A DNA stretch of 64,000 bases from a virus. Its lineage: Duplodnaviria > Heunggongvirae > Uroviricota > Caudoviricetes. Positions 4,254 to 61,457 of this stretch are shown here, one piece after another. The stretch lies in IMG/VR virus record IMGVR_UViG_2609459792_000007; one strand, 5' to 3'. The notes under the pieces are model-generated. The model worked only from the letters and a program-made list of their open reading frames with translations. It was not told the DNA's origin and made no database searches. How positions within the stretch are numbered: position 1 is the first letter of the stretch; each line of letters starts with the position of its first letter. The position numbers were made by a program, and so were the translations under genes.

Positions 4254-4269
4254 GTAAGTACATACTTAC
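4254..4269. promoter_or_regulatory. palindrome GTAAGTA-CA-TACTTAC (family B, TAAGTA type)
   Basis: Perfect inverted repeat directly after the terminator and upstream of the 4313 gene. Confidence 0.5.
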
Positions 4270-4312
4270 GATCATAGAATATAAAAATAACCAAAACACT
4301 ACGGAGAGTGAA

Positions 4313-4708
4313 ATGACCGTTAAACGCGAAAAACTGACAGTTGATGTTTACTATGCCTCTGAAACCGCCGAAGGTAAGAATGTGGCAAAAATCACCGTTG
4401 TTACGTACAACACCGAAACTGGTGCCGAAGTCCAGGCCAGTACGATTGTGCGTAAAGGTGATGCCTCCGGCGGCGAGTACGCGACTCAATACCAGTCCAT
4501 TCTCGATGCAACTGACCCGCTGCTGCTGAAAATCGAGAACTACTTCCGCCAGGTTGATGAAGAGGTGTTTGAAACCATGATGAATATGGTTAACACCGTA
4601 TTCGCCTCCAGCCTGAATACCAACACTACCTGGATTGGTCAGTACGGCCTGCGCATTACCTCTGGCATTCCTGCCGACACCTTAATCCCTGAAAGCGTAT
4701 TCGCTTAA
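4313..4708 (+). CDS. hypothetical protein
   Basis: ATG 4313 with RBS ggagag 5 nt upstream. Confidence 0.65.
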   Translation: MTVKREKLTVDVYYASETAEGKNVAKITVVTYNTETGAEVQASTIVRKGDASGGEYATQYQSILDATDPLLLKIENYFRQVDEEVFETMMNMVNTVFASSLNTNTTWIGQYGLRITSGIPADTLIPESVFA

Positions 4709-4720
4709 TCCTCTTTAAAT

Positions 4721-4748
4721 GGCGCGTAAACCGCGCCATTTTATTATG
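4721..4748 (+). terminator. rho-independent terminator
   Basis: ggcgcg-taaacc-gcgcc followed by attttatt. Confidence 0.75.
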
Positions 4749-4751
4749 CCC

Positions 4752-4768
4752 GATAACAATTTGTTTTC
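4752..4768. promoter_or_regulatory. operator-like palindrome GATAACAATTTGTTTTC (family A)
   Basis: Same word plus tctgcc flank as the copy at 1244. Confidence 0.5.
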
Positions 4769-4825
4769 TGCCTTATCTGATTTGTGAAAATGATTTCACT
4801 GAAGCAACTTAATAAGGAAACCATC

Positions 4826-5200
4826 ATGGGACTTGATATCTATATCGAGACGCAGCCTAAAAACGATCTGAATAACGAGGCATCCAGAAAGCAGGTTGCT
4901 TACTTCCGTAAGTTCAATGCGCTCGTTGGGTGGATGGAGCGCAACGTAGGTGAAGTCGAAAATTGTGAGCTTTTAGAATTAACGATGAATGACATTTGTT
5001 TTCTGAAGGCTCATTTGATGCACATAAACGAAAGTAATTGCGAAGAGTACTTGCCTACCCGGGAAGGTTTTTTCTTCGGCAGTCAGGAGTACGATGAAGG
5101 TTACTGGCATGATGTGGGGCAGTTGAAAGAGCTTGTGGAAGATCTGATTAAGAACCACGACTTTCACAATAACAGACTGACCTTCTGCGCCTGGTGGTAA
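4826..5200 (+). CDS. hypothetical protein
   Basis: ATG 4826 with RBS aaggaaac; ORF track start at 4784. Confidence 0.6.
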   Translation: MGLDIYIETQPKNDLNNEASRKQVAYFRKFNALVGWMERNVGEVENCELLELTMNDICFLKAHLMHINESNCEEYLPTREGFFFGSQEYDEGYWHDVGQLKELVEDLIKNHDFHNNRLTFCAWW

Positions 5201-5202
5201 AT

Positions 5203-8558: not shown

Positions 8559-8867
8559 TTATTGAACAGACTCTACAGCCTTACGATTGGTGTCAAATAG
8601 CGCATCAACGAACTGTGCCGATGACTCGCTAGATTCGCAATCCAACATTGCCCGTTCTTCATTTGCCACTTTCTTACACAGTTCCACATTCTCACCTATC
8701 GCTTTTCCTGCTTTTACGGCTGCCGAAAATTGATACATGCAAACTGATACATTCTGAGACGTTGAGCACACGTCATTCATCAGCGACTGAATGACAGGCT
8801 TATAGTCCATTGCATTTGCCGCAACTGAGCAAAGTAAAAATAATGGTGGTAACAATATCGATTTCAT
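8559..8867 (-). CDS. secreted cysteine-containing protein with N-terminal signal peptide
   Basis: MKSILLPPLFLLCSVAANA signal-peptide-like N-terminus; followed on minus strand by a terminator hairpin at 8523-8546. Confidence 0.55.
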   Translation of the reverse strand: MKSILLPPLFLLCSVAANAMDYKPVIQSLMNDVCSTSQNVSVCMYQFSAAVKAGKAIGENVELCKKVANEERAMLDCESSESSAQFVDALFDTNRKAVESVQ

Positions 8868-8870
8868 AAC

Positions 8871-9395
8871 TCAAAAAGGCAAAATTCGTTCAACCCAATC
8901 GAACAAAACAACTATTTTTCTACCGTTCTCGACACGTAGTGTAACCTGACAAGCATCTGCGCCTGCTGACACCCCCTCAATTTCACGGCCATCCGCCATG
9001 TACACCCTTATAGATTTGTTTGCTTTGTAGGCTTGGTTGCAAATTGCAAAAAAATCGCGGCGTGATGGCCGATTATCGACATAATCAGGGTGAACTGTTA
9101 GTCGACCTTTGAAATCGTGAGCGATACTGTCAACCACACCTGATTCAATTGTACTAATGCGTTCAAGTGGGAGCCTTATACGATTTTCTTTGTCAAAAGG
9201 GGCTGGGCAAAGGTCAACTTTGTTACGAGATGGCATGAGGCCATAAACGTACATGCAAAACGCCTGGCCATCTTCGAGAGTGACCCTTACAGGAATTTGT
9301 TCTCTGCGCCAGAACATCAGTAGTTTTTCAACGTTAGTGTAATCTCGCGGCCAGAGTTCAGCTTGGATACCGTAGGTAATATCTTTGGTTGTCAT
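8871..9395 (-). CDS. hypothetical protein
   Basis: ORF; likely start MTTKD at 9395 overlapping upstream stop. Confidence 0.5.
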   Translation of the reverse strand: MTTKDITYGIQAELWPRDYTNVEKLLMFWRREQIPVRVTLEDGQAFCMYVYGLMPSRNKVDLCPAPFDKENRIRLPLERISTIESGVVDSIAHDFKGRLTVHPDYVDNRPSRRDFFAICNQAYKANKSIRVYMADGREIEGVSAGADACQVTLRVENGRKIVVLFDWVERILPF

Positions 9396-9399
9396 GTCA

Positions 9400-9822
9400 T
9401 CACAGAGTTGTTGGCAGAATGTCGATGTCACCAGAATTGCTGGTGAACACCCTGAACGCTTTTGTGTCTCCATTCTTCAGAGTCGTTTCTCGCTCTTGAC
9501 GAGCGGGGTTTAGAGCACATAAACCTGCACCTTCAAGAGATGCACCCACAATTAATTCTCCGGCATTTAAATGGAAAGTCGCTTTTTCGCCTGTAGCCAG
9601 TTTTGCGACAGTTTCGCCATTGATGAAAATGGAAGCATCACATCCAGCTCCTACAAAACCTGTGTCTCTCATTACCACCAACGTAGCTGGCGCTGCGCTT
9701 TGATACTTGAACACTTTGGCCTGCGGTGCTGGTTTGGCGTCATGGATTGATATTGGACGTGATTGGCACGCGGTAAGCATCAACACTGGTAACGTTAGTA
9801 GAGGGAGAAGCGAGTATTTCAT
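9400..9822 (-). CDS. putative lipoprotein
   Basis: MKYSLLPLLTLPVLMLTAC: signal peptide with lipobox LTAC. Confidence 0.6.
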   Translation of the reverse strand: MKYSLLPLLTLPVLMLTACQSRPISIHDAKPAPQAKVFKYQSAAPATLVVMRDTGFVGAGCDASIFINGETVAKLATGEKATFHLNAGELIVGASLEGAGLCALNPARQERETTLKNGDTKAFRVFTSNSGDIDILPTTL

Positions 9823-9890
9823 GATAGTTTTAGAACAGAAAGTGAACAGTATGGGAGACTTCATCTTTGTCTCCCTAATTGATAGCGTGA

Positions 9891-10169
9891 TTATTTTAAT
9901 CTGCTTAATAGCGTTTCGAGATCTTCCTTTGTCATATTAGAGTTCTCATAGATACGCATGATTTTCTCACGAGTCTTAGCGGAAGCCCCGACAGAAGATA
10001 TAACCTTGTCAAAGTCGGCCATTGTCAATTGTTCCAGAATGGTATTTATGACTTCAGCCTTAGACATTTTGATATTTTTTTCTTTTAGTTTCACTTGAAA
10101 CTTTCCAAGTTTGTCATTGGCCTTATCAGACAATGCTACCTGACAGTAAGTTGTTTTCTTTTCACTCAT
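9891..10169 (-). CDS. hypothetical protein (92 aa)
   Basis: ORF directly downstream of helicase gene on minus strand. Confidence 0.5.
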   Translation of the reverse strand: MSEKKTTYCQVALSDKANDKLGKFQVKLKEKNIKMSKAEVINTILEQLTMADFDKVISSVGASAKTREKIMRIYENSNMTKEDLETLLSRLK

Positions 10170-11731: not shown

Positions 11732-11777
11732 AAACCTCTTTCCTTAGTGCCTTTTGTATGTTATTTGGCTATTATAA

Positions 11778-11796
11778 TAAGTAAGTGATTACTTAG
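11778..11796. promoter_or_regulatory. family B motif TAAGTAAGTGATTACTTAG
   Basis: Inverted TAAGTA / TACTTA in divergent intergenic region between helicase and ParB-like genes. Confidence 0.45.
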
Positions 11797-11813
11797 TGGA
11801 TTGTAGCAATAAA

Positions 11814-15815: not shown

Positions 15816-17071
15816 TGGCAATCCCGTCCTCGCTCAGTCTTGTGCAACTGCATTCTGGACAGATGAAAGTCTTCCAGTCTCCGCATCGATTTAAAGTTGT
15901 TTGTGCTGGTCGACGCTGGGGAAAATCCCGGTTGTCGATCTCCACTATTATTCGTGCGGCGGCAAAGGAAAAAAAGCAAAGAGTCTGGTATGTCGCTCCT
16001 ACTTACCAGATGGCTCGCCAGATTTTGTGGGACGATCTACAGGAAGTTCTGCCTCGTAAGTGGGTTAGGAAAAAGAACGACACCACGATGACAATCGTGT
16101 TGAAGAACGGTTCGGAGATCGCCCTCAAAGGTGCTGATAAGCCTGACACTCTGCGCGGCGTAGCGTTGCATTTTGTAGTGCTTGATGAATTTCAGGATAT
16201 GAAGGCTGACACCTGGTACAAGGTGTTACGACCTACTCTTTCATCGACACGCGGCGGTGCACTGATCATTGGTACGCCAAAAGGCTTCTCGGAATTTCAC
16301 AAACTGTGGACTATAGGCCAGAACGTAGAGCTGCAAAGAAAGGGACAGTGGAAGAGCTGGCAGTTTGTAACTGCCGATTCTCCGTTTGTACCTACGGCGG
16401 AAATTGAAGCTGCTAAGAACGATATGGACCCGAAATCGTTCGCTCAGGAGTACCTGGCGAGCTTTGAGAACATGTCCGGGCGCGTTTACTACCCGTTCGA
16501 TCGTAACGTGCATGTAAAACCGCTTCAGTTCAACCCTCGGTTGCCTATATGGGTAGGGCAGGACTTCAACATTGACCCGATGTCTTCAGTAATTTTGCAA
16601 CCTCAGCCAAATGGTGAGCTATGGGCAATTGATGAATTGGTGCTCTTTTCCTCTAACACGGCAGAGGTTTGTGATGAGCTTGAGAGACGCTTCTGGCGCT
16701 GGAAATCACAGATAACGGTATTTCCAGATCCGGCAGGTGCTTATCGCCAACATGCTCGCGGGGAGTCTGACGTCGACATATTCAAAGAGAAGGGATTCTT
16801 ACGTGTCGATTATTCGAAAAAGCACCCGCCAATTGCGGATCGTGTTAATGCTGTTAACCGAATGCTGATGACCGCATCTGGAGATATCCGGCTGTATATC
16901 GATCCGAAGTGCAAGCATTTGATTGATTCACTGGAAAAAGTCATCTACAAGCCTGGAACACGAGATATGGATAAGACAGGTGGCATTGAGCATAGTGCAG
17001 ACGCATTGGGCTATCCAGTACATCGTAGGTATCCAGTCAAAAACCGTGTTATTCTTGGTGGTTCTCGATAG
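15815..17071 (+). CDS. terminase large subunit
   Basis: ATPase motif VVCAGRRWGKS, Walker B-like VVLDEF, C-terminal nuclease-like region; precedes portal. Confidence 0.8.
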   Translation: MAIPSSLSLVQLHSGQMKVFQSPHRFKVVCAGRRWGKSRLSISTIIRAAAKEKKQRVWYVAPTYQMARQILWDDLQEVLPRKWVRKKNDTTMTIVLKNGSEIALKGADKPDTLRGVALHFVVLDEFQDMKADTWYKVLRPTLSSTRGGALIIGTPKGFSEFHKLWTIGQNVELQRKGQWKSWQFVTADSPFVPTAEIEAAKNDMDPKSFAQEYLASFENMSGRVYYPFDRNVHVKPLQFNPRLPIWVGQDFNIDPMSSVILQPQPNGELWAIDELVLFSSNTAEVCDELERRFWRWKSQITVFPDPAGAYRQHARGESDVDIFKEKGFLRVDYSKKHPPIADRVNAVNRMLMTASGDIRLYIDPKCKHLIDSLEKVIYKPGTRDMDKTGGIEHSADALGYPVHRRYPVKNRVILGGSR

Positions 17072-17084
17072 GTAAGTAATTATC
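17067..17084. promoter_or_regulatory. family B motif GATAGGTAAGTAATTATC
   Basis: Between terminase stop and portal start. Confidence 0.45.
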
Positions 17085-17097
17085 TAAGGTTATTCAA

Positions 17098-18672
17098 ATG
17101 GAATTGAACGACAAACAAATTAAGGATCTGGTGGCGCGACGCCACCCGGAATACGAAAAGAAAAAAGAACATTGGGACTTCCTCGCCAGCACTTACGCTG
17201 GCGGGCGTGGTTGGTTTACAGACAATATCTTTCGTTACTTTAAAGAGGGAGATCAGGAGTTTAAGGAGCGAGTTGAACGTGCTTATCGCTTCAACCACAC
17301 TCGTGAGGTGGTAAACCTCATCAACAAATATCTCTTTAAAGAAGACATTCATAGAAATATCGAAGAGGCACCAGAGCAGATCCGCAATTTCTGGAAACGT
17401 GCGACTCGCCAGAATGCCTCTATTGACTCATTTATGGCCGCTATTGATTTGCAGTCGTCTATTTACGGTCGCATATGGGTTGTTGTCGATAGCACGATGA
17501 GTGGTGATGTTGAGTCAGTAGCTGACGAGAAAAAGAAAGATGCTCGCGCCTACGCCTACTGGATTTCACCTCAGCAAATGCTGGATGTGGCATGGGACGA
17601 CGACGGGAATATGTTGTGGGCGTTAATTGTGGAAGTCGCTCGTGATGACGCAGATCCTTTTACTTCTACAGGTCAGGAATACCAACGTTATCGTCTGTGG
17701 ACACAAAACGAGTGGTATCTGTTCCGTGAGGAAGTGAAGAAGGGCGCTGGTGGAGCAGGTCGCCGTCAGGCAAAAGTTATTTTAGAGGATAGCGGTGAGC
17801 ATAATCTCGGCGTAGTTCCTGTGTTTCCTGTTGATTGTATTGGAGAAAGTGAATCACCGTATTTCAGCCCATCGTTGATCGATGATATCGCTTATCTTGA
17901 TCGTGCGGTTGCAAACTATCTGTCAAACCTTGATGCCATTATTCAGGATCAGACATTTAGCCAGTTGGCTATACCGGTACAGTCGCTTTTACCTGGTGAT
18001 GAAAACCACACTAAAGTGCTTGAAATGGGCACAAAGCGAGTCTTCACCTACGATTCTGAAGGTGGAAACCAGCCGTTTTATCTGTCACCAGACCCGAAAC
18101 AAGCTCAGATGATCATCACTACGATTAAGACGGTGATTAACGAAATCTACCATTCAGTTGGTGTAGCTGGTGAGCGAACGAAGCAGGACAACGCACAGGG
18201 AATCGATAATTCATCTGGTGCCGCAAAAATGTATGACTTCCAGCGTGTAAATAGCTTGCTTGTCACAAAAGCAGAGCGTCTGGAAAGGGCTGAACGCCAA
18301 ATCATGCTACTGGTTGCGAAATGGATGGGGGTAGATCTGGACGAAGACCACTCTTTAATTGCATATCCAGAAAGTTTCGATATTCGTGGCCTTACTGATG
18401 AATTTTCTGTTGCCGAGAAACTGTCATTACTTCAGGCACCGGACTCTGTACGTCGTCACCAGATGGAAATGCTTATTGAGAAGATTTTCCCGAACATTAC
18501 TGAGGCGATGAAAAAGGAATTTGATAAAGATCTCTTGAATTTTCCTCCAAAAAATGATCTAAATACCCTTGAAAATAAGTCAGTACTTACTTATGATCGT
18601 GGTGCAGCCCAAGAAAGCGGGCAAGATCAACCCCGAGGGAATGGGGACTCATCTACTCAAGAGAACGAGTGA
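17098..18672 (+). CDS. portal protein
   Basis: 524-aa ORF between terminase and scaffold genes; RBS aaggttattcaaATG. Confidence 0.75.
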   Translation: MELNDKQIKDLVARRHPEYEKKKEHWDFLASTYAGGRGWFTDNIFRYFKEGDQEFKERVERAYRFNHTREVVNLINKYLFKEDIHRNIEEAPEQIRNFWKRATRQNASIDSFMAAIDLQSSIYGRIWVVVDSTMSGDVESVADEKKKDARAYAYWISPQQMLDVAWDDDGNMLWALIVEVARDDADPFTSTGQEYQRYRLWTQNEWYLFREEVKKGAGGAGRRQAKVILEDSGEHNLGVVPVFPVDCIGESESPYFSPSLIDDIAYLDRAVANYLSNLDAIIQDQTFSQLAIPVQSLLPGDENHTKVLEMGTKRVFTYDSEGGNQPFYLSPDPKQAQMIITTIKTVINEIYHSVGVAGERTKQDNAQGIDNSSGAAKMYDFQRVNSLLVTKAERLERAERQIMLLVAKWMGVDLDEDHSLIAYPESFDIRGLTDEFSVAEKLSLLQAPDSVRRHQMEMLIEKIFPNITEAMKKEFDKDLLNFPPKNDLNTLENKSVLTYDRGAAQESGQDQPRGNGDSSTQENE

Positions 18673-20482: not shown

Positions 20483-20493
20483 TCAGTGAAGTA

Positions 20494-20507
20494 GATAAGT
20501 AATTATC
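20494..20507. promoter_or_regulatory. family B motif GATAAGTAATTATC
   Basis: Same word as at 17067; sits between capsid stop and hairpin. Confidence 0.45.
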
Positions 20508-20515
20508 TATGTTAA

Positions 20516-24061: not shown

Positions 24062-24066
24062 CTCAA

Positions 24067-24086
24067 TTAGTAAGTATATACTTACT
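24067..24086. promoter_or_regulatory. family B perfect palindrome TAGTAAGTATATACTTACTA
   Basis: 20-bp perfect dyad just upstream of major tail gene. Confidence 0.5.
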
Positions 24087-30562: not shown

Positions 30563-30611
30563 GTATCTGGATAAGTAAGTACTAATTTACTATCATTGTG
30601 GCGCTGACAGG

Positions 30612-37482: not shown

Positions 37483-37525
37483 AATAAGTAGGTACTTACT
37501 TAATGGTGGGCAAGGATAGCCCACC
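37483..37525. promoter_or_regulatory. family B motif plus GGTGGGC hairpin upstream of fibre gene
   Basis: aaataagtaggtacttactta then ggtgggc-aaggata-gcccacc, then RBS aaggag. Confidence 0.5.
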
Positions 37526-42637: not shown

Positions 42638-42868
42638 ATGAAAAGATTATTTCTAACAATAGCTGTTGTTCTCTCTCTTACTGGCTGTCAGAAATTGCCG
42701 ACACCCATATGTTATGGTGAGGCTATCATTGGTGGACAGGAGACAGTCATACCTATATATGCTGTTAAAAAGGTTAACGGCTATACCTTATACAAAGCGG
42801 GTAGCATCTATAACTGGCGATGGGTTGGAGTAGGTGCTTTCTCATCAGTGCGTTGCAATGCTGAATGA
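42638..42868 (+). CDS. small lipoprotein
   Basis: MKRLFLTIAVVLSLTGC: signal peptide with lipobox LTGC. Confidence 0.6.
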   Translation: MKRLFLTIAVVLSLTGCQKLPTPICYGEAIIGGQETVIPIYAVKKVNGYTLYKAGSIYNWRWVGVGAFSSVRCNAE

Positions 42869-42888
42869 TAAGTAAGTACACACCTACA
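42864..42888. promoter_or_regulatory. family B motif GATAAGTAAGTAC
   Basis: Upstream of lysis genes; followed by TTGACT -35-like hexamer at 42925. Confidence 0.45.
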
Positions 42889-47952: not shown

Positions 47953-47976
47953 GTGATAAGTAAGTAACTACCTACC
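47953..47976. promoter_or_regulatory. family B motif GATAAGTAAGTAAC
   Basis: About 25 nt upstream of the 47988 gene. Confidence 0.45.
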
Positions 47977-51375: not shown

Positions 51376-51386
51376 CAAGTGCCGCT

Positions 51387-51410
51387 AAAATAAGTAGATG
51401 ATTACTTATC
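51387..51410. promoter_or_regulatory. family B motif, reverse orientation
   Basis: aataagtagatgattacttatc. Confidence 0.45.
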
Positions 51411-52265: not shown

Positions 52266-52285
52266 TGATAGGTAAGTACAAGATT
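52266..52285. promoter_or_regulatory. family B motif GATAGGTAAGTAC
   Basis: Ends about 12 nt before the ATG of the 52290 gene. Confidence 0.45.
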
Positions 52286-52289
52286 ATTT

Positions 52290-54902: not shown

Positions 54903-54910
54903 AAATACAA

Positions 54911-54933
54911 TGATAAGTATTTACTTACTTATC
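54911..54933. promoter_or_regulatory. family B motif GATAAGTA-N7-ACTTATC
   Basis: Inverted GATAAGT arms at the start of the structured region before the tRNAs. Confidence 0.45.
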
Positions 54934-55681
54934 TTATATGTATAAGATGACTTTGTTTTCGTTGAGACGCGACTGTTTGAACTTAAATACAAGTGCAAAC
55001 GAAGAAGTCTATCTGGCAGTAGCCTAATAAGCCAAACACCAGCGAGGTCAGTTTCCAGCCTCGTTACCGAAATGGGACACACTGAGCGAGTGTGATTGCA
55101 GAACGCAGGAGGGAACATTCATGTTCCCTCCGATGAAGTAACAGAATGGGCGGTTGGTATATTTTCAACTCCATATGACTCCCGGATTCTTAGCCACTGA
55201 CCGCCCATTCTGTTACGTCATTTTGTTCAATTATGTCGTTTATACTGGGTTAAAAAGCGGCGACGTAGCCCGGCTGGTATGGTCAGCCAGCACACAACGT
55301 TGAGGCCATTACATTTTTATCAATTCTAAGGTTCTATTCACAGAGATACCGGCGAGCGTTGATATGTAACATGTTGGGCAAACATTCAATCGGAGTAGTG
55401 GCCTCAACGTTGTGAAAATAGGATAGTTGTGTAGGTTTAACCACTGTTGCCATTGGTACCTGTTTTCACAACAAATGATTCCATACATCACATTGTATAA
55501 ATTACAAAGTAGGTGCTGTCCTCAGAAACATCATCTACTTAAATAATTTGCCTTCTACTATTGAGCGAAGTCGAAAGCGTCTGGCACTAACGAAAAGTGC
55601 AAGTAGCGGTGCGTTTCCTGGCAGAAACTAACACCGCCGCGATTGGCACTGTTGAGTAATAAATACTGGCAGTGCTGAATT

Positions 55682-55756
55682 GATGGTGTAGCTCAGCGGT
55701 AGAGCAGTTGGCTGTTAACCAACTGGTCGGTGGTTCGAATCCACCCACCATCGCCA
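55682..55756 (+). tRNA. tRNA-Asn (anticodon GTT)
   Basis: Manual cloverleaf: acceptor gatggtg/caccatc, D arm gctc-agcggta-gagc, anticodon loop ctGTTaa, T loop ttcgaat. Confidence 0.85.
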
Positions 55757-55761
55757 ATTTA

Positions 55762-55848
55762 GGGGAGTTAGTCCGTAGAGGTAGCGGGGTAGACTGTAAA
55801 TCTACTGTCATGGAGACTCGGGTGGTTCGACTCCATCACTCCCCACCA
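55762..55848 (+). tRNA. tRNA-Tyr (anticodon GTA), long variable arm
   Basis: Acceptor ggggagt/actcccc, anticodon stem-loop gtaga-ctGTAaa-tctac, long variable arm, T loop ttcgact, 3' CCA. Confidence 0.7.
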
Positions 55849-55852
55849 AATT

Positions 55853-55928
55853 GCCGGTTTAGCTCAGTTGGTAGAGCGCCTGCCTTGTAAGCAGGATGTC
55901 AGCGGTTCGAGTCCGTTAACCGGCACCA
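55853..55928 (+). tRNA. tRNA-Thr (anticodon TGT)
   Basis: Acceptor gccggtt/aaccggc, D arm gctc-agttggta-gagc, anticodon loop ctTGTaa, T loop ttcgagt, 3' CCA. Confidence 0.8.
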
Positions 55929-56152
55929 ATACAACGATAAGATCATTACGGTTAATCGTCGTTCATGTGCACAATGACTGGTCGAAAGGTAGTGATCTTA
56001 CCGTTGTGGTGGATTCGCAGACTGATGCGATAGCTTTCTTGGATGTTAGGGAAATGCGGCCGCAAATCTTCCCTTTCGCGAGCGGTGATCGTCCGTAGTC
56101 CTAATTGGCTGCACCGTATGCCGGAGATTCAGTACCGGCCACCACAACGGCC

Positions 56153-56239
56153 GGAGAGTAGGGAGCATGGTGCTCAAGCGGTCTTGAAAACCGTCCCATT
56201 GCGCAAGCGATGATGGTTCGATTCCATTACTCTCCGCCA
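56153..56239 (+). tRNA. tRNA-Ser (anticodon TGA), long variable arm
   Basis: Acceptor ggagagt/actctcc, anticodon stem-loop gcggt-ctTGAaa-accgt, long variable arm, T loop ttcgatt, 3' CCA. Confidence 0.7.
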
Positions 56240-56396
56240 GACACAGCGTTGAGCGGTTTGGCCTTTTAATCAACTCGATTAAGACTCCGCTAACATAAAC
56301 CAGACCGCTCAACGCTGTGATAGACAATTACGGCAGACGTTCTTAACCATAGCTTGCTAACATCCTAGCAACACTTTTTTTCAGCGCAAAATTCAA

Positions 56397-56423
56397 AGGG
56401 GCTTCGGCCCCTTTTTTGCAACT
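56397..56423 (+). terminator. rho-independent terminator after tRNA cluster
   Basis: aaaggggc-ttcg-gcccctttt followed by ttgc. Confidence 0.85.
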
Positions 56424-56460
56424 GAAAGAGTCAAGTCTACGAACTTTGTAGGGAGAAATA

Positions 56461-56811
56461 ATGACCAGCAAAGAGAACACACCACTAAAAGTCACCCCTG
56501 AACACATTGAACAACTCATTCAAAGTGAACATTATTTCACTGCATATGATGCCAGCCACGGGGATAACTTCATCTCTGTTTACAATTCAAAAACAGATAT
56601 CGACAAAGGTCATGAGTCGTTAAAACTCTTAACGTTCTGCGTTATGGTTCTCAAAAATGGATATACCGTAACGGGAAAATCTGCGTGCGTAAGACCAGAA
56701 ATCTTCAACTTTGATGTTGGTCGTGAGTACGCTCGAAAAGATGCTATCGATCAAATCTGGCCCCTGGAAGGCTATCTCCTGAAGCAAAAGTGGCATGAGG
56801 CAAAGCAATGA
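56461..56811 (+). CDS. hypothetical protein (116 aa)
   Basis: ORF with RBS gggagaaataATG; coupled to glutaredoxin gene. Confidence 0.5.
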   Translation: MTSKENTPLKVTPEHIEQLIQSEHYFTAYDASHGDNFISVYNSKTDIDKGHESLKLLTFCVMVLKNGYTVTGKSACVRPEIFNFDVGREYARKDAIDQIWPLEGYLLKQKWHEAKQ

Positions 56812-57053
56812 CGATCACTATCTACGGACGAGATAACTGCTCATACTGCAAACGTGCGGTCGAGCTGGCGAAGCAACTAAAGGGACATGGCTACGGTGAT
56901 TATGAGTACATAGACATCACCACTGCCGGTATCGACAAGAAAAAACTAAGTGAAATTGTTGGTAAACCGGTAGAGACTATCCCCCAAGTACTGATCGATG
57001 GTCAACCGATTGGCGGATACACAGAACTGGCTGCATACGTCAGCACCCTCTGA
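56808..57053 (+). CDS. glutaredoxin-like (NrdH-type) redox protein
   Basis: CSYC active-site motif near N-terminus; 81 aa. Confidence 0.75.
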   Translation: MTITIYGRDNCSYCKRAVELAKQLKGHGYGDYEYIDITTAGIDKKKLSEIVGKPVETIPQVLIDGQPIGGYTELAAYVSTL

Positions 57054-57131
57054 TTTTAACGGCTCACAGGAGCCGTTTTTATTACCACCAAACTCACTCC
57101 CATTTCCCTTAAAATTCAAAAAACAACGTCA

Positions 57132-57164
57132 AAATGATTCCATACCTACTATGTATGGAATCAT
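57132..57164. other. candidate site-specific recombination site: perfect 13-7-13 inverted repeat
   Basis: AATGATTCCATAC-ctactat-GTATGGAATCATT, 100 bp upstream of tyrosine recombinase gene. Confidence 0.55.
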
Positions 57165-57217
57165 TAGTGAAAATGAGTTACTTTTACTCTTGATCCTATA
57201 AGAATCTATGCCTAATA

Positions 57218-57237
57218 TACTGTTTACTTATACAGTG
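57218..57237. promoter_or_regulatory. LexA-box-like sequence upstream of recombinase gene
   Basis: TACTGT-ttacttat-ACAGTG fits CTGT-N8-ACAG; 27 bp upstream of ATG 57264. Confidence 0.45.
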
Positions 57238-57263
57238 AATCGGCGTAACTCGGTGATTGTCAT

Positions 57264-58367
57264 ATGAAAAATAGCTTTGACAGAGCACGCGCTGCGGAGA
57301 ACACCTCAAAAGAGGCGATTGAGTATCTCGAAAGAGCATCTCAAATGCAGGCCGTTATGATCTCGCAGGTTAGCATTGATATGAGATTCTCGGACGCATT
57401 CATGTTATTCACTCGCTTATCTCTGCTGATAACCAGACGTCGGCCAGAGATCGCTGTTCATTGTATTTTGATACATGTTTTGCCGCACATTGCCGATGTA
57501 AAAGTAAGTGACATTAATAGGTTCATGGTGAACCAGCTGGTCAACCCACTAATACTGGATGGCAAAATTGTTATGGGCCGCCGCGTTTTCTCTCTGATGA
57601 AACAGTTCCTTAGCTGGTGCGCCTTCCAGGGGATGATAGACGTGTCACCGTTAAACGATATGTCACTAAACAAAGTTGCCGGTGGCGCAAAGCCCACACC
57701 TCGCGAGCGGAAGCTGACCGACGCAGAGGTATGGGTGTTCTGGAATATATGGGACTACTTCAATGTGTGCGCTGGTACAAAATGGGCGGCCAGGCTGTGT
57801 CTTGTATCAGCAAGACGACCTGACGAAGTACTGCGGGCTAAAAAAAGTGAGTTCAATCTTAAGCGTGGGGTTTGGAATCAAGGCAAGAGAAACAAGTCAG
57901 CACGTGAGCATTCGCTGCCTTTAAGCACATTAATGCGCACATGCATTGAAGAGTTGTTCGAATACGGTAAAGACAGCCAGTGGCTCGTGCCTTCGAATAA
58001 AAAAATCGGGAAAGACCTTCCTATGTCTAAAGTGGCAATAGCCCAGGCATTACGTCGTATTCTGGAACGACCAGAACTGATGGAGCTTGAGCCATTTACA
58101 CCCCGAGATTTGCGCCGTACTGCGCGTAGTTACTTCCCAGCATTAGGCATAAGCCAGGAGGTATCACGCAAAATCATGAACCACAGTCTTGAGGGGATAG
58201 ATCGGGTCTACGACCGGCACGATTATATGGACGAGATGCGAGACGCCTTAGAAAGTTTCTCGACGTACATCGCATCAATCGTAGAGCAACCGGATTTAGA
58301 CGAAATTGACCACAAATTCAAGGGAGATCGTCTATCAACAGAGCTTATTCGTGTAAATTTTTCATAG
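57264..58367 (+). CDS. tyrosine recombinase / integrase family protein
   Basis: C-terminal catalytic-domain-like residues (ARRPDE, DLRRTARSY, MNHS, RVYDRHDY). Confidence 0.7.
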   Translation: MKNSFDRARAAENTSKEAIEYLERASQMQAVMISQVSIDMRFSDAFMLFTRLSLLITRRRPEIAVHCILIHVLPHIADVKVSDINRFMVNQLVNPLILDGKIVMGRRVFSLMKQFLSWCAFQGMIDVSPLNDMSLNKVAGGAKPTPRERKLTDAEVWVFWNIWDYFNVCAGTKWAARLCLVSARRPDEVLRAKKSEFNLKRGVWNQGKRNKSAREHSLPLSTLMRTCIEELFEYGKDSQWLVPSNKKIGKDLPMSKVAIAQALRRILERPELMELEPFTPRDLRRTARSYFPALGISQEVSRKIMNHSLEGIDRVYDRHDYMDEMRDALESFSTYIASIVEQPDLDEIDHKFKGDRLSTELIRVNFS

Positions 58368-58748
58368 AGACTTTATGGCCTCAACAACCTTTTGTGATGC
58401 GCCTTTCTCTTTACCGAATCGCTCGTTATACGCAGCAAGAACCTGTTTTTCGTCCTCGTTAAGAGGAGCGGTGCCTTCTTTGTATAAAAATGCTGCGAGT
58501 TCAGGTTGGCGTTCTTCCAGCACCATCATCATAAGACGACTTGGTTCAATACCCAGCGCCAGCGCCAGCGGACGAACCTTATCGATAGGCAAAGGAATTT
58601 TGCCACTTTTAATTAAAGAAAGGTTGTTGGCATTTTTATAACCAATAAGTCTGGCTATTTGGGCCTGACTCATAGGTGAGGATTCAATCAGCCCTGCGAT
58701 AAAAGCAGCATAGCGACTTTCTATAAATTCAATCTTGTTGTCAGACAT
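58362..58748 (-). CDS. XRE-family helix-turn-helix transcriptional regulator
   Basis: HTH-like segment SQAQIARLIGYKNANNLSLIKSGK in a 128-aa protein. Confidence 0.7.
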   Translation of the reverse strand: MSDNKIEFIESRYAAFIAGLIESSPMSQAQIARLIGYKNANNLSLIKSGKIPLPIDKVRPLALALGIEPSRLMMMVLEERQPELAAFLYKEGTAPLNEDEKQVLAAYNERFGKEKGASQKVVEAIKSL

Positions 58749-58786
58749 TGTTACAACCTTTGCGCGTTTAATTCTCTCTGGTAAGT

Positions 58787-58800
58787 GCTTACCGATATTA
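58787..58800. promoter_or_regulatory. palindrome GGTAAG-TG-CTTACC upstream of regulator gene
   Basis: Perfect dyad about 40 bp upstream of the regulator start; related to family B. Confidence 0.45.
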
Positions 58801-58999
58801 CATCAAAGGTTAGGGTTGTAAAGCTATTATCATTTTTTTCGGCAGGCACTTGTAAGACCGAGCAAAGGTCCATGCATGGAGAAAAACTAGCCCAAAATAG
58901 GTAAGAAAATTAACTTGCATCTGATATAGATGTATTCAGTATTGATACAAATTTTAGTAGTATTCCTTACCATAGTATAAGTTAGAATGGATTGATTGA

Positions 59000-59212
59000 A
59001 TGAAAACCACTATTTCCAGCCTAATCGCTCTTGAGATCGGACACGTACAGAAATTAGCTGATGAGTGTGTAGCTGACATCCTCACCGATCTACCGAATGA
59101 GCAGATTCAGGTTGGTGTGAATGACACAACTGGCTTTATATTCGAACTTAACAACAAACGCTTCACGCTTCTCAATACCGGCTCCGGGTCTTTAGCCGTC
59201 AGAATCTGTTAA
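59000..59212 (+). CDS. possible small protein (70 aa)
   Basis: ORF in AT-rich intergenic region; followed by hairpin ctgcgcgaa...ttcgcgcag. Confidence 0.3.
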   Translation: MKTTISSLIALEIGHVQKLADECVADILTDLPNEQIQVGVNDTTGFIFELNNKRFTLLNTGSGSLAVRIC

Positions 59213-59310
59213 CCCCTCTTCTCCCTGCGCGAATGGCTTAGTTCCCTGTTCGCGCAGTGCTACATTAAACACACTAGTAAATAATTTGTTTTCATAACAA
59301 AGGATTAGCC

Positions 59311-61419
59311 ATGTCTAAAAAACGTTCCATCAAAGAGGTTCAGGACTTCCGTGACAGTGTAAAACGAGTAGTCGCTCTCCTTTCAGGTAAAAACATCCCT
59401 GTTGCAGAACGAGGGGACGACGCTTATGTACGCTATAACGATGATGGAGAGCCAATTCTCGTAAACATCCCATCAATCCCGGATAACGCAACACCGGCAT
59501 TGATGAATGCTGTGCGCGGATTTCTCGATCATGAGGTTGCTCACATTTTGTTTACCGATATTCGTGTGTCCAACAAAATGAGAGAAAAAGGACGCGTTCC
59601 TTCCTGGTCGCTATGGAATGCCTTAGAAGACGTGTTCATCGAGCGAAAAATGGGTCAGGTCTTTAACGGAACAAGACGTAATCTGATGGCAACTCAGCGC
59701 CTTATAATCGAAAAAGTCTTTAAACCAAAGGCTTCAGAGGCTATTGCTTATTGTGGCAAAGATCAGCGCGCGCTTTTTCTAAACTTCTTTCTCTGTCCGG
59801 TTGTAAGAGCCTGGGATGGCCAAGCACCGTTCGTAGATTTCATGGATGAATATTGGCCTGTCATTGAGAAACCAATTTCATTATTAAAAGAACATGGTAT
59901 CGATGTGGCCGTGCGTAACATGTCTTGCACCGAGGATTGTGTAAAGGTGGCTGCGACCATAGCTAAGATCCTCAAAGACACTGAAAGTGAAAGCAAAGGT
60001 AAGGAGTCAGCTCCGGGAAAAACTTCCGATCCTTCAGACGCTGACCAGACGGATGCCTCTGGAGAAAACAATGAAGACAACGAAGATCATGAGACACCCT
60101 CATCGTTAGATAATCACAAATCTATTAAATCAGAGTCACATAGTAAGCACAAACATGATAATAACGACAGTGATGATTCAGATAATCCTGAATCATCAGA
60201 AACAATATTCGATGATACAGAAAATGATAAAGCGGTATCAGATTCTGATGCTTCTGATAACGCGGCGTCAGAATCATTAACCGCTGACCACGAAAAAAGA
60301 AAAACGACAGAAGACGGCTCTTCAGACATTCCAACTCCGTCAAAAATGAGTCTGGAAGAGGCTTTAGAGGAGTTGGATAGCATGGAAGATGAAGTCGGAG
60401 GCATGACAGAAGATGCGCTATCCGAAACGATTAAAAGCGAGTTAACAGAAAGCTCGAAAAGCGAATACAGGCCATACAATCGCTCATACGACTTCATCGG
60501 CTCGATTGATCAGGCAGAAGCCCATATCAAACGGCTTATTAAAACATTCTCCGATATTGATTTAGGTGGATATCCAATCAGCCGTTATCGCATCGTTCCT
60601 GAAGGCAACCAACTCTTCGACAAATATATTGAAAAGCACCTTTCGTCAGGTGTTTCGTCGACGCTGGCAAAAGACCTGGAACGTGCAATAGCAAGCAGAA
60701 ACAGAGTTCAGTTTATACCTGGCCAGCGTCGGGGGCGCATTCATGGTTCAAGTATCTACAGATTAACAATGAATGATGATCGCGTGTTTCGTAAAAAAGA
60801 AGAATCTAAAGCCGTTAACGCCTGTGTTCAACAAGTGATTGATTTATCGGGTTCAATGAGTGGCGAAACGATAAAACTAGCTCTTGCAAGTGCATATACC
60901 ATCGCCGATGCACTTGATCGAATAAATGTTCCCAACATTATCACCGGCTTCACTACATTTGGCAGTCATATGGCAGCAGGAGAACTTAAGGCTATCAAAT
61001 ATGAGTTCTCTCGCTTTGAATCTTTAATGCTACCTATCATCAAAAATTGGAATGAAAAAGCAAATTCTCGCGAAGTTCGCTCACGTATGGGGTGCGTAGG
61101 CTACACATTCCCACTTCTTAATAACGTGGATGGTGAAAGCATAGCCAGCCTTGCATCGTTATTTTCCGGTCGCTTGGAGGACAGGAAGATCATGCTTGTT
61201 CTGAGCGATGGCGCGCCGTGGGCTGTTGGGAGAGGTTTTGACGCCCATTTGCGTTCGGTTACGAAGCAAATTGAAACGCAGACTGACATTGATTTGATGG
61301 CAATTGGCATCATGACTGATGCACCGGAGAGATTTTACGCAAATCATGCCCTGGTAACTAGTGTTGATAGTCTTGGTTCATCTGTAGTTACTGAACTATC
61401 TCGTATCATTTTGAAGTAA
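59311..61419 (+). CDS. CobT-like von Willebrand factor A domain protein with acidic linker
   Basis: MIDAS-like motif VIDLSGSMSG; long D/E/S-rich low-complexity region. Confidence 0.65.
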   Translation: MSKKRSIKEVQDFRDSVKRVVALLSGKNIPVAERGDDAYVRYNDDGEPILVNIPSIPDNATPALMNAVRGFLDHEVAHILFTDIRVSNKMREKGRVPSWSLWNALEDVFIERKMGQVFNGTRRNLMATQRLIIEKVFKPKASEAIAYCGKDQRALFLNFFLCPVVRAWDGQAPFVDFMDEYWPVIEKPISLLKEHGIDVAVRNMSCTEDCVKVAATIAKILKDTESESKGKESAPGKTSDPSDADQTDASGENNEDNEDHETPSSLDNHKSIKSESHSKHKHDNNDSDDSDNPESSETIFDDTENDKAVSDSDASDNAASESLTADHEKRKTTEDGSSDIPTPSKMSLEEALEELDSMEDEVGGMTEDALSETIKSELTESSKSEYRPYNRSYDFIGSIDQAEAHIKRLIKTFSDIDLGGYPISRYRIVPEGNQLFDKYIEKHLSSGVSSTLAKDLERAIASRNRVQFIPGQRRGRIHGSSIYRLTMNDDRVFRKKEESKAVNACVQQVIDLSGSMSGETIKLALASAYTIADALDRINVPNIITGFTTFGSHMAAGELKAIKYEFSRFESLMLPIIKNWNEKANSREVRSRMGCVGYTFPLLNNVDGESIASLASLFSGRLEDRKIMLVLSDGAPWAVGRGFDAHLRSVTKQIETQTDIDLMAIGIMTDAPERFYANHALVTSVDSLGSSVVTELSRIILK

Positions 61420-61432
61420 TTAAAACAGCCTT

Positions 61433-61457
61433 AATGATAAGTAACTACTTACCATAG
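61433..61457. promoter_or_regulatory. family B motif GATAAGTAACTAC
   Basis: Between the CobT-like and CobS-like genes. Confidence 0.45.

What the first reader, a model, noticed from the sequence alone, without database searches (positions are those of the whole stretch)
4254..61457. Family B: GATAAGTAAGTA / TAAGTA-N-TACTTA motif at the head of many operons
Sixteen or more intergenic copies (4254, 11778, 15036, 17067, 20494, 24067, 30569, 37483, 42864, 47953, 51387, 52266, 54911, 58787, 61433) precede portal, tail, fibre, lysis, replication and CobS-like genes. Several are paired with a hairpin. The word does not match a sigma70 -10 hexamer, so it probably marks an element-specific promoter class or a global regulator site.
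Basis: seen in the sequence. Interest (0 to 1): 0.7.

Follow-up and report, generated by a model that had tools for sequence, protein, structure and literature searches.

The report
Dispersed repressor operators of a phage-plasmid
The repeated TAAGTA word is one half of a 22-base palindrome that sits on ordinary promoters at the head of about 25 gene blocks of an SSU5/pMT1-type phage-plasmid, and it is most likely the binding site through which the element's own repressor keeps the viral genes silent while it lives as a plasmid.

Summary
The window is an SSU5-like phage-plasmid, 98-99% identical to E. coli phage Cyrano/pLF82. The "word" is half of a 22-bp dyad, RATARGTAAGT|ACTTACYTATY. It has 15 copies in the window and 20-25 per genome. 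Fourteen of 16 sites lie in the 15% of the window outside ORFs. Sites occupy orthologous positions in Cyrano, SSU5, Klebsiella pJN2-26 and Yersinia pestis pMT1. The arms do not co-vary, so this is a protein-read DNA dyad, not an RNA hairpin. It is not a new promoter class. Conserved sigma70-type -35/-10 pairs overlap the dyad in many different registers, with the dyad centre from about -36 to +15. That pattern fits steric repression, not activation. Published lysogen RNA-seq shows the best of these promoters silent in culture and partly de-repressed in macrophages. Distant relatives carry lineage-specific versions at syntenic places, for example TCAGTCAGT|ACTGACTGA in Acinetobacter. The likeliest binder is the XRE-type repressor next to the integrase (58362-58748, minus strand). 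Its own promoter is followed by a core dyad, and its recognition helix changes Asn to Arg only where TAAG becomes TCAG. Binding itself is inferred, not shown. The closest analogues are P1 C1 operators and mycobacteriophage L5 stoperators. I found no description of this circuit in the literature.

The parts
4249..4270 (.). Variant dyad GTATTGTAAGTACATACTTACG. Its left arm is altered so that it forms a -35 hexamer: TTGTAA (4252-4257), 17 bp, TAGAAT (4275-4280). Next gene starts at 4313; a terminator hairpin lies just upstream.
   Evidence: orthologues in SSU5 (93164) and Klebsiella pJN2-26 (28030) keep the dyad plus TAATAT/TAGTAT 4 bp downstream
11776..11797 (.). Dyad in the divergent gap between the UvsW-like helicase (minus strand, start 11731) and ParB (plus strand, 11814). 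On the minus strand it reads dyad followed by TATAAT. On the plus strand TGTAGCAAT lies 4 bp downstream.
   Evidence: orthologue in pMT1 at 16177
17067..17088 (.). Dyad that overlaps the large-terminase stop codon and lies 10 nt before the portal ATG (17098). No convincing sigma70 promoter is found here.
   Evidence: orthologues in SSU5 2030, pJN2-26 40579, pMT1 21709, and the Acinetobacter variant at 67371 at the same junction
18574..18595 (.). Dyad inside the 3' end of the portal ORF. It fills the spacer of the best sigma70-like promoter found in the first 20 kb: TTGAAA (18569-18574), 17 bp, TATGAT (18592-18597).
   Evidence: 10 of 12 matches; score 12.8, the same in all four genomes
20490..20511 (.). 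Dyad between the major-capsid-protein stop codon (20482) and an intrinsic terminator hairpin (20513-20540).
   Evidence: the same arrangement occurs in SSU5, pJN2-26, pMT1 and Acinetobacter (71081)
24065..24086 (.). Dyad with a TATA centre, overlapping TTGAAT (24053-24058), 18 bp, TATACT (24077-24082). It lies upstream of the tail protein gene (ATG about 24137).
   Evidence: score 10.3 in four genomes; RNA-seq shows an upward step of 2.5 log2 at the orthologous Cyrano gene 12
30570..30591 (.). Dyad overlapping TGGATA, 17 bp, TATCAT (30568-30596). It is followed by the hairpin at 30600-30622 and then the minor tail protein L gene.
37483..37504 (.). Near-perfect dyad AATAAGTAGGTACTTACTTAAT, followed by the hairpin at 37505-37525 and the tail fibre gene (ATG 37547).
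42867..42888 (.). Dyad with a good left arm and a degenerate right arm, upstream of the holin/lysis genes. The SSU5 orthologue is a perfect 22-bp palindrome, TGTAGGTAAGCGCTTACCTACA.
47955..47976 (.). Dyad in the predicted 5' leader of the first gene of the replication block (ATG 47988). It lies downstream of TTCCAA, 17 bp, TATCAT (-10 at 47938-47943) and directly before the ribosome-binding site.
   Evidence: the same promoter is conserved in SSU5 and pJN2-26
51389..51410 (.). Dyad 4 bp upstream of an extended -10, TGTAAGAAT (51415-51423). Next gene starts at 51451.
   Evidence: the orthologous Cyrano gene 34 stands 2.4 log2 above its upstream neighbour
52267..52288 (.). Dyad with a good left arm only, ending 2 nt before the ATG at 52290.
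54912..54933 (.). Best-scoring dyad in the window, GATAAGTATTTACTTACTTATC. Its centre provides a -35 hexamer, TTTACT, for TAAGAT at 54943-54948. It lies upstream of the tRNA cluster.
58781..58794 (.). Core-only dyad GGTAAGTGCTTACC. It sits immediately downstream of the repressor gene's own promoter on the minus strand (TTTACA 58822-58817, 16 bp, TAATAT 58800-58795), at about -6 to +8.
   Evidence: the arrangement is conserved in pJN2-26 (90498)
61436..61457 (.). Dyad upstream of the CobS-like gene (ATG 61515), with an extended -10, TGnTATATT, at 61465-61470.
58362..58748 (-). Candidate dyad-binding protein: a 128-aa XRE/Cro-type helix-turn-helix (HTH) repressor, the homologue of CYRAN_45. It is convergent with the integrase gene.
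   Evidence: (HTH_19, phrog_8); expressed at about 10 times the element's median in the lysogen

Best explanation
The motif is a 22-bp dyad-symmetric operator with ideal sequence GATAAGTAAGT|ACTTACTTATC. A dimeric helix-turn-helix (HTH) regulator encoded by the element reads it. The most likely regulator is the XRE-type repressor next to the integrase (58362-58748, minus strand). About 25 copies per genome lie on host sigma70-type promoters at the heads of transcription units for structural, lysis, replication, recombination and nucleotide-metabolism genes. A few other copies, such as the terminase/portal junction, have no recognisable promoter and may act as roadblocks to transcription. A bound repressor would occlude RNA polymerase and so keep the whole lytic programme silent while the element replicates as a plasmid. 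Loss of repressor activity would fire all units at once. What is shown: the dyad, its statistics, its intergenic placement, its conservation, the overlapping directional promoters, and the co-varying lineage-specific variants. What is inferred: that the bound protein represses, and that it is this particular protein.
For: (1) The site is read as DNA, not as RNA structure. Identity between the two arms of one site equals identity between arms of different sites (7.2 vs 7.4 and 7.6 vs 7.6 of 11; permutation p = 0.87 and 0.51). G/T and A/C mispairs are equally frequent.
(2) The site is conserved. There are 15-22 sites per genome in Cyrano, SSU5, pJN2-26 and pMT1 at orthologous intergenic positions. 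Orthologous dyads are 87% identical, against 55% for the 30 bp on either side.
(3) Promoters overlap the dyad. Sigma70-like scores near the dyads are higher on the gene strand than on the opposite strand. The best promoter of each site family is conserved across genomes but sits in a different register in each family. Examples are TTGAAA-17-TATGAT with the dyad in the spacer, TTTACA-17-TAGTAT with the -10 in the dyad centre, TTTACC/TTTACT -35 hexamers made from the dyad itself, and a dyad in the 5' leader. Local departures from the dyad consensus create these hexamers.
(4) Expression data agree. In LF82 RNA-seq (PMC9928086, table S1) genes behind the best promoters are at the floor in culture (genes 56 and 60 at 2.32 log2) and rise 3.6 log2 above their upstream neighbours in macrophages. 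Upward steps of at least 2.3 log2 occur at 5 of 22 dyad boundaries against 4 of 76 others (Fisher p = 0.025). The repressor gene, the gene divergent from it (homologue of CYRAN_46, 59000-59212) and the integrase gene rise together.
(5) The regulator link. The repressor gene's own promoter is followed by a core dyad, and this is conserved in Klebsiella. The protein family occurs only in these roughly 100-116 kb elements. The predicted fold is of the Cro/C1 HTH type.
(6) Motif and protein co-vary. Acinetobacter relatives carry about 30 TCAGTCAGT|ACTGACTGA dyads at syntenic places, and each position-weight matrix finds 0-1 sites in the other group. The repressor's recognition helix begins with Asn in every TAAG lineage and with Arg only in the TCAG lineage. 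The Klebsiella STEFF_14 lineage keeps the helix and the half-site but has a shorter protein (101 aa) and a different half-site spacing. Between the two Klebsiella lineages the repressor (39% identity) and the FljA-like protein (34%) are the most diverged candidates, while the 88-aa candidate DNA-binding protein at 14721-14987 (homologue of CYRAN_123) stays at 82%.
Against: No binding or transcript 5'-end data exist. Phage SSU5 lacks the integrase/repressor module yet keeps 22 intact dyads. This is explained only by assuming a recent, isolate-specific deletion; none of 822 related plasmids shares that junction. Most sites lack a good -35, and about two thirds carry a TAnnnT hexamer at dyad positions 19-24. 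In one Acinetobacter lineage the dyad abuts TATAAT at nearly every site. Both features also fit an activator-dependent promoter class. The expression test used a threshold chosen after seeing the data, and the overall distribution of steps is not shifted (Mann-Whitney p = 0.51). The Asn/Arg correlation rests on a single evolutionary event. The operator at the repressor's own promoter is only a weak core copy. The helicase operon next to dyad 11776 is expressed in the lysogen. A second dispersed dyad, AAACAA-N-TTGTTT, exists, so the pairing of regulator and site could be the other way round.
Confidence: 0.55

Rival explanations
1. The dyad is the recognition site of an element-encoded activator, or part of a specialised promoter. 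It would replace the -35 element at a class of lytic promoters, as the inverted repeat does at Lpa-dependent late promoters of phage P1.
For: The -35 position is not conserved in a fixed register. TAnnnT is found at dyad positions 19-24 in about two thirds of sites. In Acinetobacter lineage 2 the dyad is followed directly by TATAAT, and both Acinetobacter lineages encode a weak sigma70-region-2-like protein. Sites without a -35 stay silent under partial de-repression.
Against: The best conserved promoters sit in many different registers relative to the dyad. Full sigma70 promoters with the dyad in the spacer or on the -10 are silent in the lysogen. The outer TATCAT is mirrored on the non-coding side, so it is part of the palindrome. 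A copy sits at about +1 of the repressor's own promoter. No sigma-like protein was found in the enterobacterial elements.
Confidence: 0.18
2. The dyads are loading or silencing sites for one of the two ParB-like proteins (11814-13162). They would work like the KorB operators of IncP plasmids or the dispersed centromeres of phage N15.
For: A dyad lies directly upstream of the parB-like operon. ParB_N domains are present. The sites are numerous and dispersed.
Against: Both ParB-like genes are at background in the lysogen. They are 66-68% identical between Klebsiella lineages whose dyad spacing differs. The sites coincide with promoters, not with a partition locus. The ParA gene lies elsewhere (45858), behind the other dyad family.
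Confidence: 0.08
3. The palindrome acts in RNA as a hairpin. It would serve as a processing site, a stabiliser, or the target of a translational repressor such as the FljA-like protein (8871-9395, minus strand).
For: Several copies lie 0-17 nt before a start codon. An FljA-family protein (PF03614) with a weak Hfq-like hit is encoded in the window.
Against: There is no selection for arm complementarity, and no excess of G-U over A-C mispairs. Only about 65-69% of arm positions pair. Several copies lie in promoter spacers, upstream of the predicted transcript start. No FljA homologue was detected in the Acinetobacter relative that keeps the system.
Confidence: 0.05
4. A host global regulator binds the sites. 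The outer GATAA...TTATC resembles a Fur box.
For: Outer-arm similarity to the Fur consensus, recalled from memory and not tested here.
Against: Different variants occur in elements of the same host species: the 22-bp versus 18-bp forms in Klebsiella pneumoniae, and TCAGTCAGT versus GTAAGCGCTTAC in Acinetobacter baumannii.
Confidence: 0.03

Closest known systems
Mycobacteriophage L5 / Cluster A repressor gp71 and its stoperators (PMC9283540, PMC6550527, PMC5712189)
   Same: One immunity repressor has some two to three dozen binding sites spread through short intergenic gaps of both early and late gene blocks. The site motif co-evolves with the repressor between lineages. A lytic deletion derivative (D29) has lost the repressor but keeps the sites, as SSU5 does here.
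   Different: Stoperators are asymmetric 13-bp sites read by a monomer, and they work mainly by stopping elongation in an orientation-dependent way. Here the site is a 22-bp dyad, presumably read by a dimer, and it mostly overlaps promoters. The proteins are unrelated, and the host and element type differ.
Phage-plasmid P1 C1 repressor with dispersed operators (my own knowledge; the P1 genome paper was not readable here)
   Same: A plasmid prophage of about 100 kb in which one repressor controls many scattered operons through operators that overlap promoters.
   Different: The P1 operator is an asymmetric 17-mer, ATTGCTCTAATAAATTT. It has no match in the window with up to 3 mismatches. C1 is not an XRE-type protein. 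P1 late genes are switched on separately by Lpa, whereas here structural and lysis genes carry the same dyad as replication genes.
434/P22-type Cro/CI and restriction-modification controller C-protein operators
   Same: The predicted fold of the candidate regulator matches this class. The embedded 14-bp unit TAAGTA-N2-TACTTA has the size of a 434-type operator.
   Different: Those systems use a few clustered operators at one immunity or control region, not about 25 sites across the genome.
LexA regulon
   Same: A palindromic operator overlaps many unlinked promoters at variable positions, and the repressor gene is autoregulated.
   Different: The dyad does not match the SOS box. A true SOS box is present separately, upstream of the integrase gene.

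Membership tests
L5-type stoperator system | Many repressor sites dispersed through intergenic gaps of the whole genome | tested here: met
   15 copies in the window and 20-25 per genome; 14 of 16 in the 15% of the window that is non-ORF
L5-type stoperator system | Asymmetric 13-bp site in one orientation relative to transcription, read by a monomer | tested here: not met
   The site is a 22-bp dyad; its column frequencies are mirror-symmetric
L5-type stoperator system | The repressor is a gp71 homologue | tested here: not met
   Searches with the candidate protein give only weak HTH_19 and phrog_8 matches, and its homologues occur only in SSU5-type elements. No direct comparison with gp71 was run
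L5-type stoperator system | Bound sites block elongating RNA polymerase | not testable with these tools
   This needs in vivo or in vitro transcription assays
P1 C1 operator regulon | Operator consensus ATTGCTCTAATAAATTT | tested here: not met
   No match with up to 3 mismatches. The consensus was recalled from memory
P1 C1 operator regulon | C1-family repressor protein | tested here: inconclusive
   The ten candidate regulators scanned against Pfam and PHROGs gave no hit named as a C1-family repressor. The whole proteome was not scanned
Cro/CI (XRE) HTH repressor with a dyad operator | Helix-turn-helix DNA-binding domain of the Cro/C1 type | tested here: met
   HTH_19 hit at E = 0.0015, below Pfam's cutoff. 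AlphaFold model with mean pLDDT 76. Best fold matches are C.BclI, C.AhdI, Stl, SinR and P22 c2, with TM-scores to the target of 0.7-0.8 but Foldseek E-values of 0.02 or worse
Cro/CI (XRE) HTH repressor with a dyad operator | Dyad-symmetric operator overlapping the regulated promoters and the regulator's own promoter | tested here: met
Cro/CI (XRE) HTH repressor with a dyad operator | Physical binding of this protein to this site | not testable with these tools
   Only indirect evidence from co-variation is available
P1 Lpa-type late promoter | Inverted repeat at a fixed distance upstream of a -10 hexamer, with no -35 | tested here: inconclusive
   TAnnnT is found at dyad positions 19-24 in about two thirds of sites, but the best conserved promoters use other registers
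LexA/SOS box | CTGT-N8-ACAG | tested here: not met
   The dyad has no such core. The only good SOS box in the window is at 57218-57237
Known RNA family | Match to an Rfam covariance model | tested here: not met
   Only three tRNAs reach Rfam's gathering scores in the window

The most novel reading that the evidence does not exclude
The SSU5/pHCM2/pMT1/pKpn super-group of phage-plasmids, including relatives in Acinetobacter, may be governed by a genome-wide silencing system of the stoperator type. In it, one small XRE repressor would read about 25-30 dyads made of 4-bp-periodic repeats. Each 22-bp site would then offer overlapping binding registers (TAAG-N2, -N6 and -N10-CTTA). Lineages would change immunity specificity by shifting the spacing or a single base of the repeat unit. 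Copies without a promoter (terminase/portal junction, downstream of the capsid gene, upstream of the fibre gene) would act as roadblocks, or would double as entry points placed inside terminator stems. If true, the motif variant would define superinfection-immunity groups of these clinically relevant plasmids.
Probability: 0.25. Interest if true: 0.65.

Novelty: new member of a known kind. Interest (0 to 1): 0.5.

Why it matters
SSU5-type phage-plasmids include pHCM2 of Salmonella Typhi, pMT1 of Yersinia pestis, pLF82 of adherent-invasive E. coli and many carriers of resistance genes in Klebsiella, Enterobacter and Acinetobacter. I found no description of their lysis-lysogeny control in the searchable literature. 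A defined operator, a candidate repressor and a map of about 25 controlled promoters would make the circuit directly testable. It would also predict immunity groups from sequence alone, and explain why SSU5 itself behaves as a lytic phage. The mechanism itself, a repressor with many operators, is familiar.

Tried and rejected
1. RNA hairpin. I tested arm co-variation and the asymmetry of wobble mispairs (G-U versus A-C). Both were negative. Rfam finds only tRNAs.
2. Fixed-register promoter element. The information profile of 64 aligned sites shows no strong fixed -10 or -35 beyond the palindrome.
3. Scan of viral contigs for the core GGTAAGTACTTACC. It gave mostly chance matches plus SSU5-like contigs and was not informative.
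4. Other candidate binders: the 88-aa protein at 14721-14987 (homologue of CYRAN_123), the 71-aa protein at 54251-54466 (homologue of CYRAN_37), the FljA-like protein and the ParB-like proteins. The 88-aa, 71-aa and ParB-like genes are silent in the lysogen, and the FljA-like gene is only about 2-fold above the element's median. The 71-aa protein and FljA were not detected in the Acinetobacter relative. The 88-aa protein is too conserved between lineages whose motifs differ. Sequence searches against the PDB for these proteins gave nothing.
5. FljA literature. It gave no usable operator sequence.
6. The P1 genome paper could not be read, so the P1 comparisons rest on memory.
7. Host-factor reading (Fur-like). 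Rejected because variants differ within one host species.
8. The sigma-like protein of the Acinetobacter relatives has no detectable homologue in the enterobacterial elements.

Full report
WHAT THE WINDOW IS. Two 10-kb sections of the window match Escherichia phage Cyrano (OV696614, the phage-plasmid pLF82 of E. coli LF82): 15000-25000 at 99.6% identity and 47000-57000 at 97.7%. The same sections match Salmonella phage SSU5 at about 80-81%, and the first also matches Klebsiella phage-plasmids at about 78%. Window position 15050 corresponds to Cyrano position 1. Nearly all genes run on the plus strand.

THE OBSERVATION. The word is real and far above chance. GATAAGTAAGTA with up to 2 mismatches gives 21 hits against 3.6 expected. 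TAAGTA-N2/N6-TACTTA with up to 1 mismatch occurs at 12 loci against 0.9 expected. Aligning the copies shows a 22-bp dyad, RATARGTAAGT|ACTTACYTATY, often extended to AAT...ATT. It is made of 4-bp-periodic TAAG units. A symmetric position-weight matrix (PWM) finds 16 sites in the window, 14 of them in the 14.7% of the window outside ORFs of at least 80 aa. The composite of the window plus the rest of Cyrano holds 22 sites scoring at least 18. 58787 is a core-only copy. 15036 is a shortened copy in the loop of a separate long-hairpin repeat.

DNA SITE OR RNA HAIRPIN. Within a site, the two arms are no more alike than arms taken from different sites (permutation p = 0.87 and 0.51). G/T mispairs are no more frequent than A/C mispairs. 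Each half-site therefore matches a consensus independently, which is the signature of a protein dimer reading double-stranded DNA. Rfam finds only three tRNAs in the window.

CONSERVATION. SSU5 has 22 sites scoring at least 18, Klebsiella pJN2-26 has 20, and Yersinia pestis pMT1 has 15 in the 100 kb scanned. They lie at the same gene junctions in each genome: terminase/portal, portal 3' end, after the capsid gene, before the tail, fibre, holin, replication and CobS-like genes, and others. Orthologous dyads are 87% identical, against 55% for the flanking 30 bp on each side. That comparison is ungapped and the sites were pre-selected by the matrix, so it is an upper-bound contrast.

RELATION TO PROMOTERS. 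The consensus scan's best hit in the first 20 kb is TTGAAA-17-TATGAT at 18569-18597. The dyad fills its spacer. A scored search around every dyad in four genomes shows that each site family has its own conserved sigma70-type promoter, with the -10 hexamer at a different dyad position in each family:
- Position 8: TTTACA-17-TAGTAT, Cyrano gene 60.
- Position 13: TTGAAT-18-TATACT, window 24065.
- Position 19: TTGAAA-17-TATGAT/TATCAT, window 18574 and Cyrano gene 56.
- Position 22: TTGATA-17-TAACAT before the ribonucleotide reductase gene, and TGGATA-17-TATCAT at window 30570.
- Position 27: window 4249.
- Positions 30-32: TGTAAGAAT at window 51389, and TTTACT-17-TAAGAT at window 54912.
- Position 36: TTTACC-17-TATCTT.
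- Position -2: TTGCCA-17-TGnAAAAAT.
- Position -16: window 47955, where the dyad lies in the 5' leader.

Local departures from the dyad consensus are what create these hexamers. Scores are higher on the gene strand than on the opposite strand of the same palindromic sites (Wilcoxon p = 0.013, 2.6e-5, 0.0014 and 0.015). A binding site whose centre ranges from about -36 to +15 fits steric repression. It does not fit an activator or a promoter element, which need a fixed geometry. A few copies have no convincing promoter: the terminase/portal junction, downstream of the capsid gene, and upstream of the fibre and holin genes.

HAIRPINS. The GC-rich hairpins after 20490, 30570 and 37483, and after the reductase-gene dyad in Cyrano, begin a few bases after the dyad. 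Where a promoter is predicted, the transcript start would fall inside the 5' arm of the hairpin. Read-through transcripts from upstream could then terminate while newly started transcripts escape. This is an inference. The RNA-seq drop after the capsid gene (7.6 to 4.6 log2) is consistent with termination there.

EXPRESSION DATA. Table S1 of the LF82 study (PMC9928086) gives per-gene values for Cyrano. In culture the element is almost silent. The repressor gene CYRAN_45 is at about 10 times the median. Genes behind the best dyad promoters are at the floor. In bacteria inside macrophages for 6 h, steps of at least 2.3 log2 above the upstream neighbour occur at genes 12, 34, 56, 60 and 81, all directly behind dyads. 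That is 5 of 22 dyad boundaries against 4 of 76 others (Fisher p = 0.025). The threshold was chosen after seeing the data, and the overall distribution of steps is not shifted (p = 0.51). Gene 60 has only 39 bp of upstream spacer, filled by the dyad, so its promoter must overlap the dyad. The repressor gene, the gene divergent from it (CYRAN_46) and the integrase gene rise in the same samples, as expected for an autoregulated repressor that is inactivated at the protein level.

WHICH PROTEIN. I compared the candidate DNA-binding proteins. The XRE-type protein at 58362-58748 fits best, for these reasons:
- Its own promoter (TTTACA-16-TAATAT, minus strand) is followed at once by the core dyad GGTAAGTGCTTACC. 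Klebsiella has the same arrangement.
- Homologues occur in 961 plasmids, in the rows shown almost always beside the integrase gene, and the contigs that carry them are almost all 100-116 kb.
- Its model is a Cro/C1-type helix-turn-helix (HTH) domain. The best fold matches are restriction-modification controller proteins, Stl, SinR and P22 c2, with weak E-values.

Distant relatives provide a co-variation test:
- An Acinetobacter element (NZ_CP140436) is syntenic and carries about 30 dyads aATCAGTCAGT|ACTGACTGAt at the same kinds of junction, including three weaker ones beside its repressor homologue.
- The two matrices are mutually exclusive: 0 and 31 sites in Acinetobacter, against 15-22 and 0-1 in the enterobacterial genomes.
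- The recognition helix starts with Asn in every lineage that has TAAG half-sites, and with Arg only in the TCAG lineage.
- The Klebsiella STEFF_14 lineage keeps the helix and the half-site but uses only the 14-18-bp spacing, and its repressor is 27 residues shorter at the C-terminus.
- A second Acinetobacter lineage uses GTAAGC|GCTTAC.
- Variants differ between elements of the same host species, which excludes a host factor.

The other candidates fit less well. Both ParB-like genes, the 88-aa protein at 14721-14987 (homologue of CYRAN_123) and the 71-aa protein at 54251-54466 (homologue of CYRAN_37) are silent in the lysogen. The 88-aa protein is 82% conserved between lineages whose motifs differ.

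THE MAIN DIFFICULTY. SSU5 lacks the integrase, repressor and divergent-gene module yet keeps all its dyads. None of 822 related plasmids shares SSU5's junction. The deletion is therefore private to that isolate's lineage, and it may be why SSU5 grows lytically. Mycobacteriophage D29 is a known parallel: it has lost its repressor and kept its stoperators (PMC5712189). This explanation remains an assumption. If the dyads are needed during lytic growth, the activator rival gains weight.

COMPARISON WITH KNOWN SYSTEMS. In function the system resembles the dispersed C1 operators of P1 and, more closely, the stoperators of L5-type mycobacteriophages, whose motif also co-evolves with the repressor (PMC6550527, PMC9283540). 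It is not a member of either family. The P1 operator word is absent, and the site here is a dyad rather than an asymmetric 13-mer. I found no description of a regulatory circuit for SSU5-group elements, including in a 2024 review.

VERDICT. The finding is real, strongly conserved and regulatory. It is best read as the operator set of the element's master repressor laid over ordinary promoters (confidence 0.55). It is a new member of a known kind, of moderate interest, and readily testable.

Noticed in passing
window 1245, 1296, 2182, 3367, 3851, 4754, 5504, 5989, 15105, 15130, 45810, 48740, 59279: A second dispersed dyad, AAACAA-N-TTGTTT, has 13 sites with up to 1 mismatch against 0.45 expected. 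Each lies about 25-55 nt before a start codon (TerS, ParA, helicase, CobT-like and small genes). In most of the 11 copies inspected a -10-like word (GATAAT, TAATTA and similar) ends some 7-9 nt upstream and AGA directly precedes the dyad. There are 17-20 copies per genome in SSU5 and the two Klebsiella lineages, 6 in pMT1, and only chance-level hits in the Acinetobacter relative. This is probably the operator of a second global regulator.
   Followed up: partly
window 57218-57237: A good SOS (LexA) box, TACTGTTTACTTATACAGTG, lies directly after TTGATC-17-TAATAT and upstream of the integrase gene (57264-58367, plus strand). It is conserved in Cyrano, Klebsiella (TACTGTATATAAACACAGTA) and pMT1. 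The integrase gene converges on the repressor gene and overlaps it by 6 nt, so SOS-driven transcription could interfere with repressor expression. That would be a possible route to induction.
   Followed up: partly
window 15012-15072 and 47816-47871; Cyrano about 78083-78140: A three-copy family of long hairpins (about -31 kcal/mol), CCTGCWTCTGTATATATA...TATATACGGAAGCAGG. Their loop holds a shortened dyad, AATAAGT-AAC-TTATT. They lie at module borders (before TerS and before the replication block) and may be strong terminators or insulators.
   Followed up: partly
window 8871-9395 (minus strand): A protein that strongly matches Pfam Flag1_repress (FljA, repressor of phase-1 flagellin; E = 2.5e-84), with a weak Hfq-like hit. 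It is conserved in Cyrano, SSU5, Klebsiella and pMT1, and is about 2-fold above the element's median in the lysogen. Its role in a phage-plasmid is unknown.
   Followed up: partly
window 30600-30622: The hairpin after the 30570 dyad keeps the loop ACAGGATGT. Its stem is GGCGCT/AGCGCC in E. coli, SSU5 and pMT1, but CAACGT/ACGTTG in Klebsiella. These are compensatory changes, which suggests a functional RNA or DNA structure.
   Followed up: no
L004 (SSU5) about 42600-42760, compared with window 56150-59310: SSU5 lacks the glutaredoxin-integrase-repressor-small-gene block that all 822 related plasmids carry at this place. SSU5 looks like a virulent deletion derivative of a temperate phage-plasmid.
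   Followed up: partly
L136 34899-35564 and L132 8306-8989 (Acinetobacter relatives): A protein of about 220 aa with a weak, sub-threshold match to Sigma70 region 2 follows the CobS-like ATPase gene in both Acinetobacter lineages. No homologue was detectable in the enterobacterial elements.
   Followed up: partly
window 57135-57165: A conserved inverted repeat, TGATTCCATAC...GTATGGAATCA, lies upstream of the integrase promoter and is also present in Klebsiella and pMT1. It could be a terminator or a recombination site.
   Followed up: no
window 8561-9916 and 44365-47807, compared with Cyrano: In these stretches the window has no detectable similarity to Cyrano, or only one short matching block (45751-46883). 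They include the region around the FljA-like gene and the toxin-antitoxin/ParA region. This is mosaic accessory content.
   Followed up: no
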